Source: a virus
Taxonomy: Duplodnaviria; Heunggongvirae; Uroviricota; Caudoviricetes
Virus record (IMG/VR): IMGVR_UViG_2703718823_000001
Span: 1-13,174 of that record
Strand: one strand, 5' to 3'
DNA length: 13,174 bases
The position numbers and the translations under genes were made by a program. The notes under the pieces are model-generated. The model saw nothing but the letters and a program-made list of their open reading frames with translations, made no database searches and had not been told where the DNA came from. Shown in pieces: positions 1-4,586 of the stretch; positions within the stretch are counted from its first letter, which is position 1; each line of letters starts with the position of its first letter.

Positions 1-527
1 CAAAAATCAAATACGGCCTGTCGGCTGTCGTTCTGGCGCTGATTGCCGCAGGGGCTTCTGCGCCTGAAATCCTCGACCAGTTTCTGGATGAAAAGGAAGG
101 TAACCACACCACGGCATACCGTGATGGTGCGGGTATCTGGACCATCTGCCGTGGAGCCACCCGGGTGGATGGTAAGCCTGTGATTCCTGGCATGAAGCTG
201 TCGAAGGAAAAATGCGACCGGGTTAACGCTATCGAACGGGATAAGGCGCTGGCATGGGTGGCGAAAAACATCAGAGTGCCACTGACCGAACCTCAGAAAG
301 CGGGTATTGCGTCATTCTGCCCGTATAACATTGGCCCCGGTAAGTGTTTCCCGTCGACGTTTTATAAACGAATTAATGCAGGCGATCGCAGAGGAGCGTG
401 TGAAGCGATTCGCTGGTGGATTAAGGACGGTGGCAGAGACTGCCGTATCCGCTCAAATAATTGCTACGGTCAGGTATCTCGTCGCGACCAGGAGAGTGCG
501 CTGGCGTGCTGGGGTATCGACAGATAA
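1..527 (+). CDS. R: Endolysin, T4-lysozyme-like muramidase with apparent SAR (signal-anchor-release) N-terminal domain; 5' end lies upstream of window
   Basis: Frame 0 is open from nt 3 to the TAA at 525-527. It translates to KIKYGLSAVVLALIAAGASAPEILDQF... (Gly/Ala-rich, weakly hydrophobic, SAR-like) followed by E(96-98)-x8-D(123-125)-x5-T(141-143), the spacing of the T4 lysozyme catalytic triad. It sits directly upstream of Rz/Rz1. Confidence 0.85.
   Translation, partial: KIKYGLSAVVLALIAAGASAPEILDQFLDEKEGNHTTAYRDGAGIWTICRGATRVDGKPVIPGMKLSKEKCDRVNAIERDKALAWVAKNIRVPLTEPQKAGIASFCPYNIGPGKCFPSTFYKRINAGDRRGACEAIRWWIKDGGRDCRIRSNNCYGQVSRRDQESALACWGIDR
412..419 (+). other. Chi octamer 5'-GCTGGTGG-3' (RecBCD hotspot sequence), inside the endolysin gene
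   Basis: Exact octamer match read in the sequence. The orientation is the one that is active for RecBCD entering from the right-hand cos end. Confidence 0.55.
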
Positions 528-682
528 GCAGAATATTTTGCTGAAAAGCCTGTAACTGATGACATCAGCAGAGCACTGGCTTTTGCCATTAAGTGGGTGG
601 CGGTCGGTGTTGCTGTGTCCCCGATGCTGTATGGGCTGGCAAAACTGGTCATTGCGTTGAAATCGTGAAGGGAGGATTAAGC

Positions 683-814
683 ATGTCAGACAAACTCATA
701 ACGCTGGCGAAGATCCTCTGTGTAATTGTCGGCATTTCATTTTCACTAATGCTGGTTGCTCTTTTTCTTTCCATGGCCTGGATGATGTTGTCTTCGTCGG
801 GGCTGCTGGGGTGA
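683..814 (+). CDS. Hypothetical small single-pass membrane protein (43 aa) between endolysin and Rz
   Basis: ATG at 683 is preceded by a strong Shine-Dalgarno (AAGGGAGGA, 6-nt spacer). Product [43 protein letters not shown] has one long hydrophobic segment. Its TGA stop (812-814) overlaps the Rz GTG (811-813), suggesting translational coupling. No homolog recognised from memory. Confidence 0.5.
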
Positions 815-1284
815 ACATAAACCGAATGCTTTCCGCGTTTATCGTTATTCTGCTGGTGGCCTGTGGAGCGCTGTGGATGGCAACAGACCATTACCGTGAT
901 AACGCGATTACCTACAAAGCGCAGCGCGATAACAAAGCCAGTGAACTGAAGCTGGCGAACGCAACCATTACTGATATGCAGGTGCGCCAGCGCGATGTTG
1001 CTGCGCTCGATGCAAAATACTCGAGGGAATTAGCCGATGCGAGAGCTGAAAATGAAACTCTTCGCGCTGACGTTGCCGCTGGTCGTAAGCGCCTGCGGAT
1101 CAACGCCACCTGCCACGGTACCGTGCGTGAAGCCCCCACCACCTCCGGCGTGGATAATGCAACCGGCCCCCGACTGGCAGACACCGTTACACGGGATTAT
1201 TTCACCCTCAGAGAGCGGCTGATGACGATGCAGAAGCAACTGGAAGGGGCGCAGGAATATATCCGTACTCAGTGCATTAAGTAG
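811..1284 (+). CDS. Rz: i-spanin (inner-membrane spanin subunit) Rz
   Basis: Product has an N-terminal TM helix followed by ...[14 protein letters not shown]...DVAALDAKY...[28 protein letters not shown], co-linear with lambda Rz as I recall it. Start may be GTG 811 (coupled to upstream ORF) or ATG 826. Confidence 0.9.
852..859 (+). other. Chi octamer 5'-GCTGGTGG-3', inside Rz
   Basis: Exact octamer match, same orientation as the copy at 412-419. Confidence 0.55.
1037..1222 (+). CDS. Rz1: o-spanin (outer-membrane lipoprotein spanin subunit) Rz1, embedded in the +1 frame of Rz
   Basis: Product [20 protein letters not shown]... has a lipobox (VSAC) and the proline-rich [22 protein letters not shown] core, closely matching lambda Rz1 as recalled. 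It lies entirely within Rz in another frame, as in lambda. Confidence 0.85.
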
Positions 1285-1307
1285 TCTTTTTATTATCCGG
1301 AGGATGT

Positions 1308-1532
1308 ATGAAGAAATTACTGGTAACCGTAAAGCCTTTTCAGGGAACAATTCCGTTCCGTATTTTGCAGCGTGGTCGTGTTCTTGTTGAAGGTTCGTTC
1401 AGTGGTAAATGTACGCAATTACACTCCCGGACCTTTCAGGTGAATGCCACGAATGAAGAGCTAACCGTTGAGTGTACGATGAATGCCGCTAAATGCCGCA
1501 TGGTATCCGCTGCATTACAGCCAGTGTGTTGA
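1308..1532 (+). CDS. Hypothetical 74-aa Cys-containing protein in the 'moron' position between spanins and cos
   Basis: ATG at 1308 is preceded by GGAGG (1299-1303). Product MKKLLVTVKPFQGTIPFRILQRGRVLVEGSFSGKCTQLHSRTFQVNATNEELTVECTMNAAKCRMVSAALQPVC has 4 Cys and no obvious signal peptide or TM segment. It occupies the slot where lambda carries bor on the opposite strand. No homolog recognised. Confidence 0.45.
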   Translation: MKKLLVTVKPFQGTIPFRILQRGRVLVEGSFSGKCTQLHSRTFQVNATNEELTVECTMNAAKCRMVSAALQPVC

Positions 1533-1759
1533 GCGACCTTATTATCCATGCGCGGTATTGTCGCCGTATTCCTGCATTAACAGAGACCGCAGCCCGACAG
1601 GGAGACTCCTCTGCGAGAGTGTGCGGGGATAATCAAAAACGATACACACCGGGGTTTACCGCGTTAACGGAGCGCGGCGTTGTCCCCTCATGGTCGCTGG
1701 TCCGGTGCGATGGTGGAAGAAACTGGATTTTGTTGCAACTGACAATCATTATCATTTTG

Positions 1760-1836
1760 CCGGGTCCTTTCCGGCGATCCGGGCCGTTACGGGGCGGCGA
1801 CCTCGCGGGTTTTCGCTATTTATGAAAATTTTCCGG
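1760..1836 (+). other. cos: cosQ/cosN region of a lambda-type cohesive-end site; predicted 12-nt cohesive end GGGCGGCGACCT at 1792-1803
   Basis: 1792-1836 (GGGCGGCGACCTCGCGGGTTTTCGCTATTTATGAAAATTTTCCGG) matches the lambda left end as I recall it. The preceding ...GGGTCCTTTCCGG.GATCCG...GTTACG closely resembles the lambda right end. The small terminase start lies about 195 bp downstream of the predicted end, as in lambda. Confidence 0.8.
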
Positions 1837-1840
1837 GATC

Positions 1841-1948
1841 CATGTCCGGTTTCTCTGCAAGTTAACCATATGAAAAATATAAAAACATGCTTTCCATGAA
1901 CCGGACATGCGCAAAAAATAGACACTAAAACCGGACATGACCGGTTTT
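1841..1948 (+). repeat. cosB-like cluster: four copies of a 12-bp element CATGTCCGGTTT in both orientations, separated by A-tract-rich spacer
   Basis: 1841-1852 CATGTCCGGTTT (forward). 1898-1909 GAACCGGACATG (reverse, 11/12). 1928-1939 AAACCGGACATG (reverse, 12/12). 1937-1948 CATGACCGGTTT (forward, 11/12, overlapping the previous copy to form a near-palindrome). The cluster lies between cosN and the small terminase gene, where lambda has its R3-I1-R2-R1 sites. Confidence 0.6.
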
Positions 1949-1986
1949 GTTGTGATTGTGAGGTGAGAGTTTTTGCGAGGTGAGGA

Positions 1987-2496
1987 GTGGCTACGCAGAC
2001 TGAAGTTGCCAGGCATTTAAGTCTGACCGATCGCCAGCTTCGCAGATTGCAGAAATTGCCGGGTGCCCCGATATCGAATAAGCGAGGGCAACTGGATCTG
2101 GATGCCTGGCGCGATTTTTACATATCGTATCTGAGAAGAAGTAAAAACGATGTGCCTGATGGCGATAGCGAAGACGACTATGAGGAGAAATTGCTTATTG
2201 CCAGATGGGAACTGACAGCAGAACAGGCTGTTACACAGCAGTTAAAAAATGAGGTGTCAAAAGGAAAACTTATTGACACCGGGTTCTGTATTTTTGCCCT
2301 CAGCAAGCTGGCAATGGCGTTATCCAGTACGCTTGATTCCATCCCTTTATCCATGCAGCGACAGTTTCCTGATTTAACACCGCGCCATCTTGACCATCTG
2401 AAAACCCTTATTGCGAAGGGGGCAAATCAGTGTGCGCGGGCGGGGGATAAATTACCGGATTTACTCGATGAATATATCAGAGCAACAACTGAATAA
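1987..2496 (+). CDS. Terminase small subunit (cos-binding DNA packaging protein); Nu1-like C-terminal region, non-lambda N-terminal HTH region
   Basis: GTG start at 1987 with GAGG 6 nt upstream; no in-frame ATG nearby. The C-terminal part (...GFCIFALSKLAMALSSTLDSIPLSMQRQFPDLTPRHLDHLK...LPDLLDEYI) aligns with lambda Nu1 C-terminus as recalled. The N-terminal part (MATQTEVARHLSLTDRQLRRLQKLPGAP...) does not resemble lambda Nu1. Its 3' end overlaps the large terminase start. Confidence 0.85.
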   Translation: MATQTEVARHLSLTDRQLRRLQKLPGAPISNKRGQLDLDAWRDFYISYLRRSKNDVPDGDSEDDYEEKLLIARWELTAEQAVTQQLKNEVSKGKLIDTGFCIFALSKLAMALSSTLDSIPLSMQRQFPDLTPRHLDHLKTLIAKGANQCARAGDKLPDLLDEYIRATTE

Positions 2497-4396
2497 TATG
2501 ATGAGTGCTGTCACAACAGCATTACAGCCCCTGATAAGGGCATTGCCGGTGACGCCAGTTGAATGGGCTGATCAAAATTATTATCTGCCTAAAGAATCTT
2601 CATATGGTGAGGGAGAATGGAAAACGCTGCCGTTCCAGATCGCCATCATGAACAGCATGGGGAATGATCAGATCCGGACTGTTAATCTGATTAAATCTGC
2701 CCGTGTTGGCTATACAAAGATGTTGCTGGGAGTCGCCGGGTATTTTATTGAGCATAAATCCCGAAACAGTCTGCTTTTTCAGCCCACGGATTCTGCCGCT
2801 GAAGATTTTATGAAGTCTCACGTGGAGGCGACGATTCGCGATGTTCCCTGCCTGAAAAAACTTTCTCCCTGGCTGGGACGTAAACATCGTGATAATACCA
2901 TCACGCTGAAACGCTTTTCATCGGGTGTGGGCTTCTGGTGCCTGGGCGGCGCTGCCGCCAAAAACTACCGTGAAAAATCCGTGGACGTGGTCTGCTATGA
3001 CGAACTTTCCTCGTTCGAGCCGGATGTCGAAAAAGAGGGCTCGCCAACCCTGCTGGGGGATAAGCGTATTGAGGGCTCGGTATGGCCAAAATCCATTCGC
3101 GGCTCGACGCCTAAAATAAAAGGCTCCTGCCAGATCGAAAAAGCGGCCAACGAGTCGGCACATTTCATGCGTTTTTATGTGCCCTGCCCGCACTGCGGGG
3201 AGGAGCAGTATCTGAAATTTGGCGATGAGTCCACGCCTTTTGGCCTTAAATGGGAGAAGGACAGTCCCGAAAGTGTTTTCTACCTCTGTGAACATCATGG
3301 CTGCGTGATCCATCAGTCTGAACTGGACCAGAGCAACGGGCGGTGGATCTGTGAAAACACGGGGATGTGGACCCGCGACGGTCTGACGTTTTTCAGCGCC
3401 GCGGATAATGAAATTCCGCCGCCGCGCTCCATCACATTCCATATCTGGACGGCGTACAGTCCGTTCACCACCTGGGTACAGATTGTCTATGACTGGCTGG
3501 ATGCACTGAAAGATCCCAACGGCCTGAAAACCTTTGTGAACACCACGCTGGGCGAGACCTGGGAAGAGGCCGTGGGCGAAAAACTCGATCACCAGGTGCT
3601 GATGGATAAGGTTGTGCGTTACACGGCTGCGGTGCCTTCCCGGGTGGTTTATCTGACGGCGGGCATTGACTCGCAGCGAAACCGTTTTGAGATGTATGTC
3701 TGGGGATGGGCTCCGGGAGAGGAAGCCTTTCTGGTGGATAAAATCATCATTATGGGGCGTCCCGATGAGGAAGAGACGCTGTTACGTGTGGATGTGGCGA
3801 TCAACAAAAAATACCGCCATGCAGACGGAACCGAAATGACCATTTCCCGTGTCTGCTGGGACACCGGGGGGATCGATGGCGAAATTGTCTATCAGAGGTC
3901 AAAAAAACACGGTGTTTTCCGGGTGCTGCCGGTAAAAGGTGCATCTGTTTATGGCAAGCCGGTGATCACCATGCCAAAAACCCGCAATCAGCGGGGCGTG
4001 TATCTGTGCGAAGTGGGGACGGACACCGCAAAAGAAATTCTCTATGCCCGTATGAAAGCCGATCCCACGCCTGCGGATGAAGCCACGTCGTATGCCATCC
4101 GTTTTCCTGATGATCCGGAGATTTTTTCGCAGACAGAGGCGCAGCAACTGGTGGCGGAAGAGCTTGTGGAGAAGTGGGAAAAAGGAAAGATGCGTCTGCT
4201 GTGGGATAACAAAAAGCGGCGTAACGAAGCGCTGGACTGCCTGGTGTATGCCTACGCGGCATTACGTGTGTCCGTGCAACGCTGGCAACTTGATCTGGCT
4301 GTACTGGCAAAATCCCGGGAAGAAGAGACGACCCGGCCAACCCTTAAAGAACTGGCAGCGAAGCTGTCCGGAGGAGTGAATGGTTACAGTCGCTGA
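2468..4396 (+). CDS. A: Terminase large subunit (ATPase/endonuclease), lambda gpA-like
   Basis: Product starts MNISEQQLNN... and is co-linear along its whole length with lambda gpA as recalled (e.g. VEWADQNYYLPKES, KSARVGYTKMLLGV, FWCLGGAAAKNYREKSVDV, CPHCGEEQYLKFGD, YLTAGIDSQ, WDNKKRRNEALDC). The ORF-track start at 2411 is a TTG-initiated upstream extension, judged unlikely. Confidence 0.95.
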   Translation: MNISEQQLNNMMSAVTTALQPLIRALPVTPVEWADQNYYLPKESSYGEGEWKTLPFQIAIMNSMGNDQIRTVNLIKSARVGYTKMLLGVAGYFIEHKSRNSLLFQPTDSAAEDFMKSHVEATIRDVPCLKKLSPWLGRKHRDNTITLKRFSSGVGFWCLGGAAAKNYREKSVDVVCYDELSSFEPDVEKEGSPTLLGDKRIEGSVWPKSIRGSTPKIKGSCQIEKAANESAHFMRFYVPCPHCGEEQYLKFGDESTPFGLKWEKDSPESVFYLCEHHGCVIHQSELDQSNGRWICENTGMWTRDGLTFFSAADNEIPPPRSITFHIWTAYSPFTTWVQIVYDWLDALKDPNGLKTFVNTTLGETWEEAVGEKLDHQVLMDKVVRYTAAVPSRVVYLTAGIDSQRNRFEMYVWGWAPGEEAFLVDKIIIMGRPDEEETLLRVDVAINKKYRHADGTEMTISRVCWDTGGIDGEIVYQRSKKHGVFRVLPVKGASVYGKPVITMPKTRNQRGVYLCEVGTDTAKEILYARMKADPTPADEATSYAIRFPDDPEIFSQTEAQQLVAEELVEKWEKGKMRLLWDNKKRRNEALDCLVYAYAALRVSVQRWQLDLAVLAKSREEETTRPTLKELAAKLSGGVNGYSR

Positions 4397-4586
4397 ACTG
4401 CAGGCGCTGCGTCAGGCGCGCCTTGATTTATTAACCGGTAAACGGGTGGTGTCTGTCCAGAAAGATGGTCGCAGAATTGAATATACGGCGGCCTCTCTGG
4501 ATGAGCTTAACCGGGCGATCAATGATGCTGAGTTGGTACTGGGGACAACCCGCCGTCGCCGTCGTCCGCTGGGAGTGAGGTTATGA
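4380..4586 (+). CDS. W: Head-tail joining / head completion protein, lambda gpW-like (68 aa)
   Basis: Product contains ...LLTGKRVVSVQKDGRRIEYTAASLDEL...RRRRRPLG, same length as and similar to lambda gpW as recalled. GAGGAG lies 3 nt upstream of the ATG. Overlaps the end of A and the start of B (ATGA). Confidence 0.9.
   Translation: MVTVAELQALRQARLDLLTGKRVVSVQKDGRRIEYTAASLDELNRAINDAELVLGTTRRRRRPLGVRL

What the first reader, a model, noticed from the sequence alone, without database searches (positions are those of the whole stretch)
1308..1532. Uncharacterised 74-aa Cys-containing ORF in the moron slot between Rz/Rz1 and cos
This slot (after the lysis cassette, before cos) is a classic location for lysogenic-conversion 'moron' genes; lambda carries bor near here on the opposite strand. 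This ORF is on the late-operon strand, has a plausible ribosome-binding site and four cysteines, and lacks an obvious signal peptide or TM segment. The 250 bp downstream (1533-1790) is non-coding up to cosQ.
Basis: inference. Interest (0 to 1): 0.45.

Follow-up and report, generated by a model that had tools for sequence, protein, structure and literature searches.

The report
Small conserved late-operon prophage accessory gene
The 74-codon reading frame after the Rz lysis gene is a real, widely conserved prophage gene for a tiny all-beta protein of unknown function that moves as a small cassette between late-operon slots of lambda-like phages; it is worth a note but not a surprise.

Summary
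Window 1308-1532 (+) is an intact ATG ORF of 74 codons with a GGAGGA Shine-Dalgarno, four Cys, and no signal peptide or TM segment. It lies between Rz/Rz1 and cosN of a lambda-like E. coli prophage.

It is a real gene:
- present in 1187 of 5426 complete E. coli genomes;
- intact in all 91 close copies examined;
- indels in frame, dN/dS 0.27-0.51;
- AlphaFold2 pLDDT 91 for a small beta-sandwich.

It belongs to PHROG 2571 (unknown function; Escherichia, Salmonella, Providencia prophages). It has no Pfam, NCBIfam, PADLOC or Rfam match and no significant structural neighbour.

It behaves like a mobile cassette. A sister phage with the same Rz end and cos region lacks exactly window 1285-1545. Relatives sit after the spanin genes, between tail genes I and J, or between Q and the holin. 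They are sometimes followed by an intrinsic terminator or by a ~70-aa partner gene (PHROG 4280) that the window lacks.

No promoter or terminator accompanies it here, and the cysteines are not conserved family-wide. The "lysogenic-conversion" reading is therefore only partly supported.

My best guess is a late-expressed, non-catalytic binding module. It may be related to the FNIII-A Ig-like domain of tail-tip protein J, but that evidence is weak. Function remains unknown; interest is modest.

The parts
1299..1304 (+). Shine-Dalgarno GGAGGA, 3 nt upstream of the ATG
   Evidence: Read directly from the sequence. The leader CTTTTTATTATCCGGAGGATGTATG is conserved with the ORF in E. coli and Salmonella copies.
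1308..1532 (+). 74-codon gene (plus stop) for an 8.2-kDa soluble all-beta protein, PHROG 2571
   Evidence: ORF; PHROG 2571 at E 2.8e-28; 1187 of 5426 E. coli genomes; 91/91 intact copies; dN/dS 0.27-0.51; AF2 pLDDT 91 with strands 2-8, 11-21, 24-35, 39-45, 52-55, helix 60-63, strand 66-71.
1285..1545 (.). Extent of the variable cassette: the segment present here but replaced by about 125 bp of unrelated DNA in sister phage PhiR12_1
   Evidence: In the pairwise alignment, homology breaks at the Rz stop codon and resumes about 13 nt after the ORF stop.
811..1284 (+). Rz (i-spanin), upstream neighbour. Its 3' end travels with the ORF in most copies. Rz1 is embedded at 1037-1222.
   Evidence: Pfam PF03245 and PF06085. 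Rz-ORF adjacency. In L006 only the last ~55 bp of Rz accompany the ORF.
1546..1791 (.). Non-coding segment between the cassette and cosN. It travels with cos, not with the ORF.
   Evidence: About 97% identical to PhiR12_1, which lacks the ORF. Not annotated by PGAP. RNA fold no better than shuffles, z = 0.2.
1792..1803 (+). cosN cohesive-end sequence GGGCGGCGACCT (right boundary of the slot)
   Evidence: Sequence. Identity with the lambda end sequence is from my own knowledge of lambda.

Best explanation
SHOWN:
- 1308-1532 is a genuine protein-coding gene. It is the last gene on the lysis side of the late operon of a lambda-like E. coli prophage.
- It encodes an 8.2-kDa protein with no export signal, predicted with high confidence to be a seven-strand beta-sandwich.
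- It belongs to PHROG 2571, a family found only in prophages and phages of Enterobacterales (Escherichia, Salmonella, Providencia).
- The gene is dispensable: closely related phages lack it.
- It behaves as a small mobile cassette. It occurs alone, or with a ~70-aa partner gene and an intrinsic terminator, in three different late-operon slots: after the spanins, between tail genes I and J, and between Q and the holin.

INFERRED:
- It lies 23 nt after Rz on the same strand with its own SD and no detectable promoter. It is therefore made late in lytic growth from the Q-antiterminated transcript, not in the lysogen.
- It is too small, and its conserved residues are too few (F17, Q21, G33, K34, an aromatic at 39/43, V45), for an enzyme. 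It most likely acts as a non-catalytic binding module.
- The leading specific guess (about 0.3) is a free-standing Ig-like module distantly related to the FNIII-A insertion domain of tail-tip protein J. It would dock on the phage's own tail-tip hub (gpI/gpJ) or on envelope glycans as an optional accessory.

Sub-probabilities: real gene 0.95; late-operon accessory cassette 0.8; binder rather than enzyme 0.7; virion or tail-tip association 0.3.
For: Real gene.

Family and range: PHROG 2571 matched by 27 of 27 members. The profile search of 1.84 billion representatives gave 46 hits, mostly 70-81-aa proteins. Sources name Escherichia, Salmonella and Providencia.

Cassette behaviour:
- Empty site in PhiR12_1.
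- After the spanin genes with different packaging modules.
- Between I and J in HK225 and SaltyDalty, whose flanking genes the annotators match to adjacent N15 genes gp20 and gp21.
- Between Q and the holin in Providencia.
- Strong terminators directly after the HK225 gene and after the mEp237 gene pair.

Late expression: same strand, SD, 23-nt gap or ATGA overlap, and no promoter-like site.

Link to J FNIII-A, from several weak signals in the same register:
- Pfam PF24801 hit in 3 of 27 members, best E 0.02.
- hhalign of the family core against the TipJ FNIII-A core: P 6e-4, 48 columns.
- The best BLASTP segment between HK225_020 and its own J falls at J 122-179.
- The family HMM scores HK225 J at 160-179 better than 999 of 1000 shuffles.
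- The AF2 model of a TipJ FNIII-A fragment has the same order of elements from residue 34 on: five strands, a short helix, then a last strand.
- In lambda, FNIII-A contacts gpI by beta-sheet augmentation (PMC10721106).
Against: - No experimental datum exists for any family member.
- The J link is not significant in any database-wide test. No TipJ protein is among the 46 profile hits. No PDB sequence hit was found although lambda J structures are in the PDB.
- Most copies sit beside the lysis genes, not the tail genes.
- Ig-like phage domains are normally fused to structural proteins, not free-standing (my own knowledge of Fraser et al. 2006).
- The promoter scan is a crude consensus scan and cannot exclude a weak or non-sigma-70 promoter inside Rz.
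Confidence: 0.45

Rival explanations
1. Anti-defence or host-factor inhibitor. A small soluble protein made during lytic growth binds and neutralises a host immunity protein, a signalling molecule or another host factor, possibly together with the PHROG 4280 partner in the two-gene version.
For: - Small, accessory, with presence/absence polymorphism.
- Relatively relaxed constraint (dN/dS 0.3-0.5), and one allele pair has 16 non-synonymous against 2 synonymous changes.
- In L093 a family member is directly followed by an Acb2/Tad1-hairpin protein (PF24729, E 3e-16) in the same pre-cos slot.
- In PhiR46_1 the neighbouring gene is a DUF4406 / nucleoside deoxyribosyltransferase-like gene.
Against: - No match to any known anti-defence family in Pfam, and no PADLOC match.
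- Late-operon placement is atypical for counter-defence, which is usually early (my own knowledge).
- The 16:2 excess is not significant (p 0.16-0.25).
- Neighbour evidence rests on single loci.
Confidence: 0.22
2. One reading: a lysogenic-conversion moron expressed from the prophage that changes host phenotype, as bor and lom do.
For: - It sits in a slot where lambda carries bor. It is a cassette-like insertion.
- Relatives in HK225 and mEp237 are followed by strong intrinsic terminators, half of the classical moron signature.
- It is very common in pathogenic E. coli prophages.
Against: - No promoter-like site upstream in the window, HK225 or mEp237, and no terminator in the window.
- Same strand as the late operon and coupled to Rz.
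- No signal peptide, lipobox or TM segment.
- Charge and cysteines are not conserved.
Confidence: 0.1
3. Accessory or regulator of lysis. It is co-translated with the spanins and modulates the last step of lysis or its timing.
For: - Most copies lie immediately after Rz or other spanin-like genes, sometimes overlapping by ATGA.
- In L006 the ORF travels with the last ~55 bp of Rz.
Against: - Family members also sit between tail genes I and J and upstream of the holin.
- It has no membrane or periplasmic targeting, whereas spanins act in the envelope.
- Sister phages lyse without it.
Confidence: 0.1
4. Not a functional protein: a chance or decaying ORF, or a DNA/RNA element that happens to be open.
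For: - No Pfam or NCBIfam family; dispensable.
- Truncated and fused variants exist in databases.
- The partner gene has been lost here and is truncated in L006-L008.
Against: - 91/91 intact copies and in-frame indels.
- Purifying selection.
- Recognisable homologues at 25-40% identity in other genera.
- Confident fold.
- No Rfam hit, and the other five frames are closed.
Confidence: 0.03

Closest known systems
PHROG 2571 (phage protein family, function unknown)
   Same: Full-length HMM match (E 2.8e-28). All 27 family members tested match it.
   Different: Nothing differs; it is a member. The family has no characterised member, so membership says nothing about function.
Classical lambdoid morons (lambda bor and lom; HK97 gp15; definition of Juhala et al. 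2000, from my own knowledge)
   Same: A small extra gene inserted between genes that are adjacent in related phages, dispensable and horizontally mobile. Some relatives are followed by a terminator.
   Different: No promoter of its own was detected, and there is no terminator in the window. It is on the late strand and coupled to Rz. It has no envelope targeting, whereas bor is a lipoprotein, lom is an outer-membrane protein and gp15 is a membrane protein.
FNIII-A Ig-like insertion domain of tail-tip protein J (Pfam PF24801; lambda gpJ structures 8iyk/9e7m; PMC10721106)
   Different: It is free-standing and only 74-88 aa, against about 126 aa; the first two strands are absent. No score reaches significance. 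The window ORF itself gives no Pfam hit.
XepA / YomS, beta-sandwich proteins of Bacillus prophage lysis cassettes (PDB 6i56; their function is from my own knowledge)
   Different: No sequence similarity, a different host phylum, and XepA is a 276-aa two-domain pentamer. The structural score is in the generic range.
Carbohydrate-binding modules (CBM6/35/36) and the C-terminal sandwich of hemocyanin/tyrosinase
   Different: 6-16% identity, targets much larger, no conserved sugar- or metal-binding residues identifiable, and Foldseek E > 0.09 everywhere.

Membership tests
PHROG 2571 | Significant full-length match to the family HMM | tested here: met
   E 2.8e-28, residues 1-73; 27 of 27 aligned relatives also match.
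Moron (Juhala/Hendrix definition) | Extra DNA between two genes or segments that are adjacent in a related phage | tested here: met
   PhiR12_1 has the same Rz end and cos-proximal segment but lacks window 1285-1545. HK225_020 lies between homologues of adjacent N15 gp20 and gp21.
Moron (Juhala/Hendrix definition) | Own promoter upstream of the inserted gene | tested here: not met
   Zero sigma-70-like sites in window 1-2500, in HK225 3400-4400 and in mEp237 2300-4443. The scan is crude, so weak promoters are not excluded.
Moron (Juhala/Hendrix definition) | Own factor-independent terminator downstream | tested here: not met
   None after 1532 in the window. Present in relatives: HK225 4280-4299 and mEp237 3550-3569.
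Moron (Juhala/Hendrix definition) | Expression from the repressed prophage | not testable with these tools
   Needs RNA-seq or 5'-RACE of the lysogen.
Bor/Lom-type lysogenic-conversion envelope proteins | Signal peptide, lipobox or beta-barrel outer-membrane targeting | tested here: not met
   Maximum hydropathy 0.8 over 15 residues, no N-terminal Cys lipobox, and residues 2-8 are a beta-strand in the model. No Pfam hit.
TipJ FNIII-A domain (PF24801) | HMM score above the Pfam gathering threshold (27 bits) | tested here: not met
   The window ORF gives no hit at E <= 10. Three of 27 relatives hit at E >= 0.02.
TipJ FNIII-A domain (PF24801) | Same fold and topology as gpJ FNIII-A | tested here: inconclusive
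Spanin / holin / lysis proteins | TM segment or outer-membrane lipoprotein signal; Pfam lysis families | tested here: not met
   By contrast the neighbours Rz and Rz1 match PF03245 and PF06085.
Known defence systems (PADLOC) and Acb2/Tad1 anti-defence sponges | HMM match | tested here: not met
   No PADLOC hit for the ORF, three relatives, the partner or the 286-aa fusion. No Pfam PF24729 hit.
Prophage sRNAs (AgvB/AsxR, Pas, any Rfam family) | Covariance-model match, or location at the PR'-proximal convergent sRNA site | tested here: not met
   No Rfam hit in the whole window. The published sRNAs lie downstream of PR', upstream of or adjacent to the holin/lysozyme genes, not after Rz.

The most novel reading that the evidence does not exclude
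The family is a free-standing, truncated copy of the FNIII-A Ig-like domain of tail-tip protein J that works in trans. It would be either an optional add-on that docks by beta-sheet augmentation onto gpI/gpJ and changes adsorption or host range, or, with the PHROG 4280 partner, a two-gene late module with a new role such as counter-defence against systems that sense tail or late proteins. Either case would be a new class of trans-acting Ig-like accessory proteins that spread as mini-cassettes through lambdoid late operons.
Probability: 0.2. Interest if true: 0.55.

Novelty: new member of a known kind. Interest (0 to 1): 0.3.

Why it matters
The gene is in about one in five complete E. coli genomes, with up to six copies per genome, and in many Shiga-toxin phages, yet no member of its family has ever been studied. 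If it modifies the tail tip, blocks a host defence or tunes lysis, it would add a widespread accessory function to the best-studied phage group. It would also help explain mosaic variation at the lysis/packaging junction of STEC prophages. As it stands it is one more conserved hypothetical phage protein. It is useful as a well-defined small target (8 kDa, confident fold, natural presence/absence pairs) for a knockout or pull-down experiment.

Tried and rejected
1. sRNA idea. I checked whether the site coincides with the prophage sRNAs AgvB/AsxR or Pas. Those lie near PR' and the holin, not after Rz. Rfam found nothing. The downstream RNA folds no better than shuffles.

2. Cystatin lead. The profile search hit a 602-aa multicystatin at E 3e-11. 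The protein consists of six near-identical repeats, so the score is one weak 34-residue match counted six times. The AF2 fold lacks the cystatin helix. Rejected. The same applies to the multi-repeat proteins P0085 (19 matched stretches, not scanned against Pfam) and P0098 (T-Q ester-bond domain repeats).

3. Cysteine or metal-site idea. C63 and C74 vary within the close subfamily, and no Cys is conserved in distant members.

4. Nucleic-acid-binding idea from pI 9.7. The pI of relatives ranges from 4.5 to 9.7.

5. Defence-system idea: no PADLOC hit.

6. Structure searches. Foldseek against PDB and BFVD gave nothing below E 0.09. The afdb50 library was unavailable.

7. Sequence searches against the PDB with two profiles: nothing.

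8. Scans of one genome per species found no close copy.

9. Literature searches by peptide, WP accession, PHROG ids, UniRef id and phage names: nothing.

10. Positive selection between the two commonest alleles (16 non-synonymous against 2 synonymous changes): not significant.

11. A remnant of the partner gene in the window: none by tblastn at E 10.

Full report
**1. The observation**

The window is the late region of a lambda-like prophage. Pfam assigns:
- a lysozyme, ending at 527;
- Rz at 811-1284, with Rz1 embedded at 1037-1222;
- Nu1 at 1987-2496;
- gpA at 2411-4396.

Lambda-type head and tail genes follow. The lambda cohesive-end sequence GGGCGGCGACCT is at 1792-1803.

Between Rz and cos there is an ATG ORF at 1308-1532 (+) of 74 codons. 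GGAGGA lies at 1299-1304. The protein has four cysteines (35, 56, 63, 74), pI 9.7, and no hydrophobic stretch that could be a signal peptide or TM helix.

The 276 bp around the ORF (window 1285-1560) are 100% identical to a prophage of E. coli STEC17-183. There NCBI annotates the ORF as hypothetical protein WP_000735655.1 and annotates nothing between it and the small terminase. Every factual element of the finding is therefore correct.

**2. Is it more than a chance ORF?**

Length alone proves nothing: there are 35 ORFs of at least 30 aa in the first 3 kb. Conservation does.
- The DNA occurs in 1187 of 5426 complete E. coli genomes, at 1-6 places per genome, nearly always annotated next to 'lysis protein' or 'i-spanin Rz'.
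- The exact protein has been seen on at least 1000 contigs.
- In the loci I fetched, all 91 close copies are intact 74-codon ATG ORFs.
- More distant alleles (60-97% identity; E. coli and Salmonella) keep the frame, and their length differences are whole codons (9-bp deletion class).
- Nei-Gojobori dN/dS between divergent alleles is 0.27-0.51. Synonymous differences per site significantly exceed non-synonymous ones (Fisher p 6e-5 to 4e-3).
- All five other frames carry stops.
- AlphaFold2 on a 22-sequence alignment gives pLDDT 91 and pTM 0.77. The model has strands 2-8, 11-21, 24-35, 39-45 and 52-55, a one-turn helix at 60-63, and a last strand at 66-71.

This is a real gene.

**3. What family?**

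- No Pfam, NCBIfam or PADLOC match, and no Rfam match in the window.
- PHROGs places it in phrog_2571, 'unknown function' (E 2.8e-28).
- A profile search of 1.84 billion representative proteins gave only 46 hits. Apart from fragments, these are 70-81-aa proteins with the pattern MK-x-L-x-V-T ... F-x-V-x-Q-x-G ... SGK ... Y-x-V-D-A ... L-x-V.
- All 27 aligned members match phrog_2571.
- Sources name only Escherichia, Salmonella and Providencia, always as 'hypothetical protein'.
- Conservation falls from the N-terminus (mean column entropy 0.36 for residues 1-28) to the C-terminus (1.19 for residues 57-74).
- Only C35 and C56 are conserved within the close subfamily, and no cysteine is conserved in distant members. 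Charge is not conserved either: pI ranges from 4.5 to 9.7.

**4. Surroundings and mobility**

In close relatives the gene always follows Rz on the same strand. The gap is 23 nt, or, where the Rz stop codon is mutated, there is an ATGA overlap. What follows varies:
- lambda-type cos/Nu1/A (window, Salmonella L004, L006);
- HNH plus TerS/TerL of the HK97 type (Stx2a, Stx2c and O55/O157 prophages);
- other terminases.

A natural empty site exists. Phage PhiR12_1 shares the Rz 3' end and window 1545-1860 at about 97% identity, but has about 125 bp of unrelated DNA instead of 1285-1545. The unit is thus a cassette of about 260 bp. In L006 it carries with it only the last ~55 bp of an Rz gene.

Distant members occupy other late-operon slots:
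- after the spanin-like gene in mEp237 and in L099-L101;
- just before a cos-like sequence in L093;
- inside a 286-aa protein after Rz in PhiR46_1;
- between tail genes I and J in HK225 and SaltyDalty, overlapping the upstream gene's stop by 4 nt;
- between Q and the holin in Providencia.

The HK225 gene, and the mEp237 gene pair, are each followed directly by a strong intrinsic terminator.

In many loci a second conserved gene of about 70 aa follows (MFVAxGLKxDxDNxGWVxGWAVVRxxPWHLVGVYAT...YGSHRLGSDDF; phrog_4280, unknown function). The intergenic RBS is conserved between mEp237 and Salmonella. This partner is truncated in L006-L008 and absent from the window.

In the window itself no promoter-like or terminator-like site accompanies the ORF.

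**5. Fold comparisons**

- Foldseek against the PDB and against BFVD found nothing below E 0.09.

The fold is therefore a small generic sandwich with no close solved relative.

**6. A possible relation to the tail-tip protein**

Several weak signals point to the same place, the FNIII-A Ig-like insertion domain of TipJ:
- Three of 27 members hit Pfam PF24801 at E >= 0.02.
- hhalign of the family against HK225 J picks J 159-183, inside that domain.
- Core-to-core hhalign gives P 6e-4 over 48 columns, but only 29% probability.
- BLASTP of HK225_020 against its own J picks J 122-179 (E 0.31).
- The family HMM scores the real J better than 999 of 1000 shuffles. It scores 8-11 bits at the same motif in four other TipJ fragments.
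- An AF2 model of a TipJ FNIII-A fragment (pLDDT 71) shows, from its third strand onward, the same succession of five strands, a short helix and a last strand.

In lambda, FNIII-A is contacted by gpI through beta-sheet augmentation. Such Ig-like domains are thought to aid weak adhesion to surface carbohydrates (PMC10721106).

Against this relation:
- No TipJ protein appears among the database-wide profile hits.
- There is no PDB sequence hit.
- The HMM scores negatively on the J of this very prophage, where only the GKTTSxF motif recurs.

I put homology at about 0.4. It is a lead, not a result.

**7. How it most likely works**

Shown: a dispensable, conserved, mobile late-operon gene for a small soluble beta-sandwich.

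Inferred: it is transcribed from the Q-dependent late promoter together with S-R-Rz and translated from its own SD. It is therefore made while virions assemble and cells lyse, not in the lysogen. With 74 residues and a handful of conserved surface positions it is more likely a binding module than an enzyme.

My ranking of what it binds:

| Reading | Probability | Main basis |
|---|---|---|
| The phage's own tail tip, or envelope glycans, as an optional Ig-like accessory | ~0.3 | The J-related signals and the I-J insertions |
| A host defence or other host factor | ~0.22 | Accessory nature, relaxed constraint, Acb2/Tad1-like neighbour in L093 |
| A role in lysis | ~0.1 | Adjacency and coupling to Rz |
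| Lysogenic conversion | ~0.1 | The slot and the cassette behaviour |
| No function | ~0.03 | No family annotation; dispensable |

None of these is demonstrated.

**8. Comparison with what is known, and verdict**

The gene is a member of PHROG 2571. It meets the 'extra DNA' criterion of a moron, but not the promoter and terminator criteria in this window. It fails the defining features of Bor/Lom-type envelope proteins, spanins, known defence and anti-defence families and prophage sRNAs. It fails the Pfam threshold for FNIII-A.

It is already annotated everywhere as a hypothetical protein. What this analysis adds is:
- proof of coding;
- the fold class;
- the cassette boundaries and an empty site;
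- the multiple insertion slots;
- the lost partner gene;
- a tentative link to TipJ.

Novelty: a new (uncharacterised) member of a known kind of element. Interest: modest (0.3).

Noticed in passing
window 1841-1946: Four copies of AACCGGACATG in both orientations, where 0.3 are expected by chance, lie between cosN and the Nu1 start. This is the layout expected of cosB-type binding sites for the small terminase. The pair at 1926-1949 forms the hairpin plus T-run that the terminator scan flagged.
   Followed up: partly
window 1546-1791: A segment of about 245 bp upstream of cosN with no annotated gene stays about 97% identical in PhiR12_1, which lacks the ORF. It also extends to 1768 in phage ASU11. 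So it travels with the cos side, not with the cassette. Its RNA fold is not unusual.
   Followed up: partly
window 683-814: A 43-aa strongly hydrophobic ORF ([43 protein letters not shown]) lies between the endolysin and Rz and ends where the Rz GTG starts. PGAP annotates the equivalent ORF as hypothetical in STEC17-183. It has no Pfam match.
   Followed up: no
L004 4265-4471; L094 3306-3527; L099 5341-5559; L102 665-874; L092 477-746: A conserved ~70-aa partner gene (PHROG 4280, unknown function; motif GWVxGWAVVRxxPWHLVGVYAT...YGSHRLGSDDF) follows the beta-sandwich gene in many relatives, with a conserved intergenic RBS. It is truncated in L006-L008 and absent from the window.
   Followed up: partly
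L093 863-1147: A 94-aa protein with an Acb2/Tad1 hairpin domain (PF24729, E 3e-16) sits directly after a family member and directly before a cos-like sequence. This suggests that the pre-cos slot can carry anti-defence genes.
   Followed up: no
L009 4557-4898 (also L010, L011): In O55:H7/O157-type prophages the same slot carries, after the 74-aa gene, a ~110-aa ORF with a lipoprotein-like N-terminus (…LSSLVMGCSQ) and a TonB_C domain, followed by a DUF3950 gene on the opposite strand.
   Followed up: no
L003 ~2540-2560; L009 ~3990-4004: The Rz stop codon (TAG in the window, 1282-1284) is changed to CAG or CCG in these prophages. Rz is then 7 codons longer and overlaps the start of the 74-aa gene by ATGA.
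   Followed up: partly
L055/window allele versus L011 allele of the ORF: The two commonest alleles differ by 16 non-synonymous and only 2 synonymous changes (dN/dS 2.6). This is suggestive of diversifying selection or recombination but is not significant with these data.
   Followed up: partly
L107 15798-16048 (same prophage in STEC17-183, outside the window): There is a 251-bp non-coding gap between tail genes I and J. This is the slot where HK225 carries its family member. The gap contains two GC-rich hairpins, one followed by a T-run (CAGGCATCCTCCGGGGTGCCTGTTGTTTTTT). No family remnant was seen in the six-frame translation.
   Followed up: partly
L096 3701-4561 (PhiR46_1) and P0076: A 280-286-aa protein carries the beta-sandwich domain internally (about residues 95-162), flanked by unrelated N- and C-terminal regions with no Pfam or PADLOC match. 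It sits next to a DUF4406 / nucleoside deoxyribosyltransferase-like gene.
   Followed up: no
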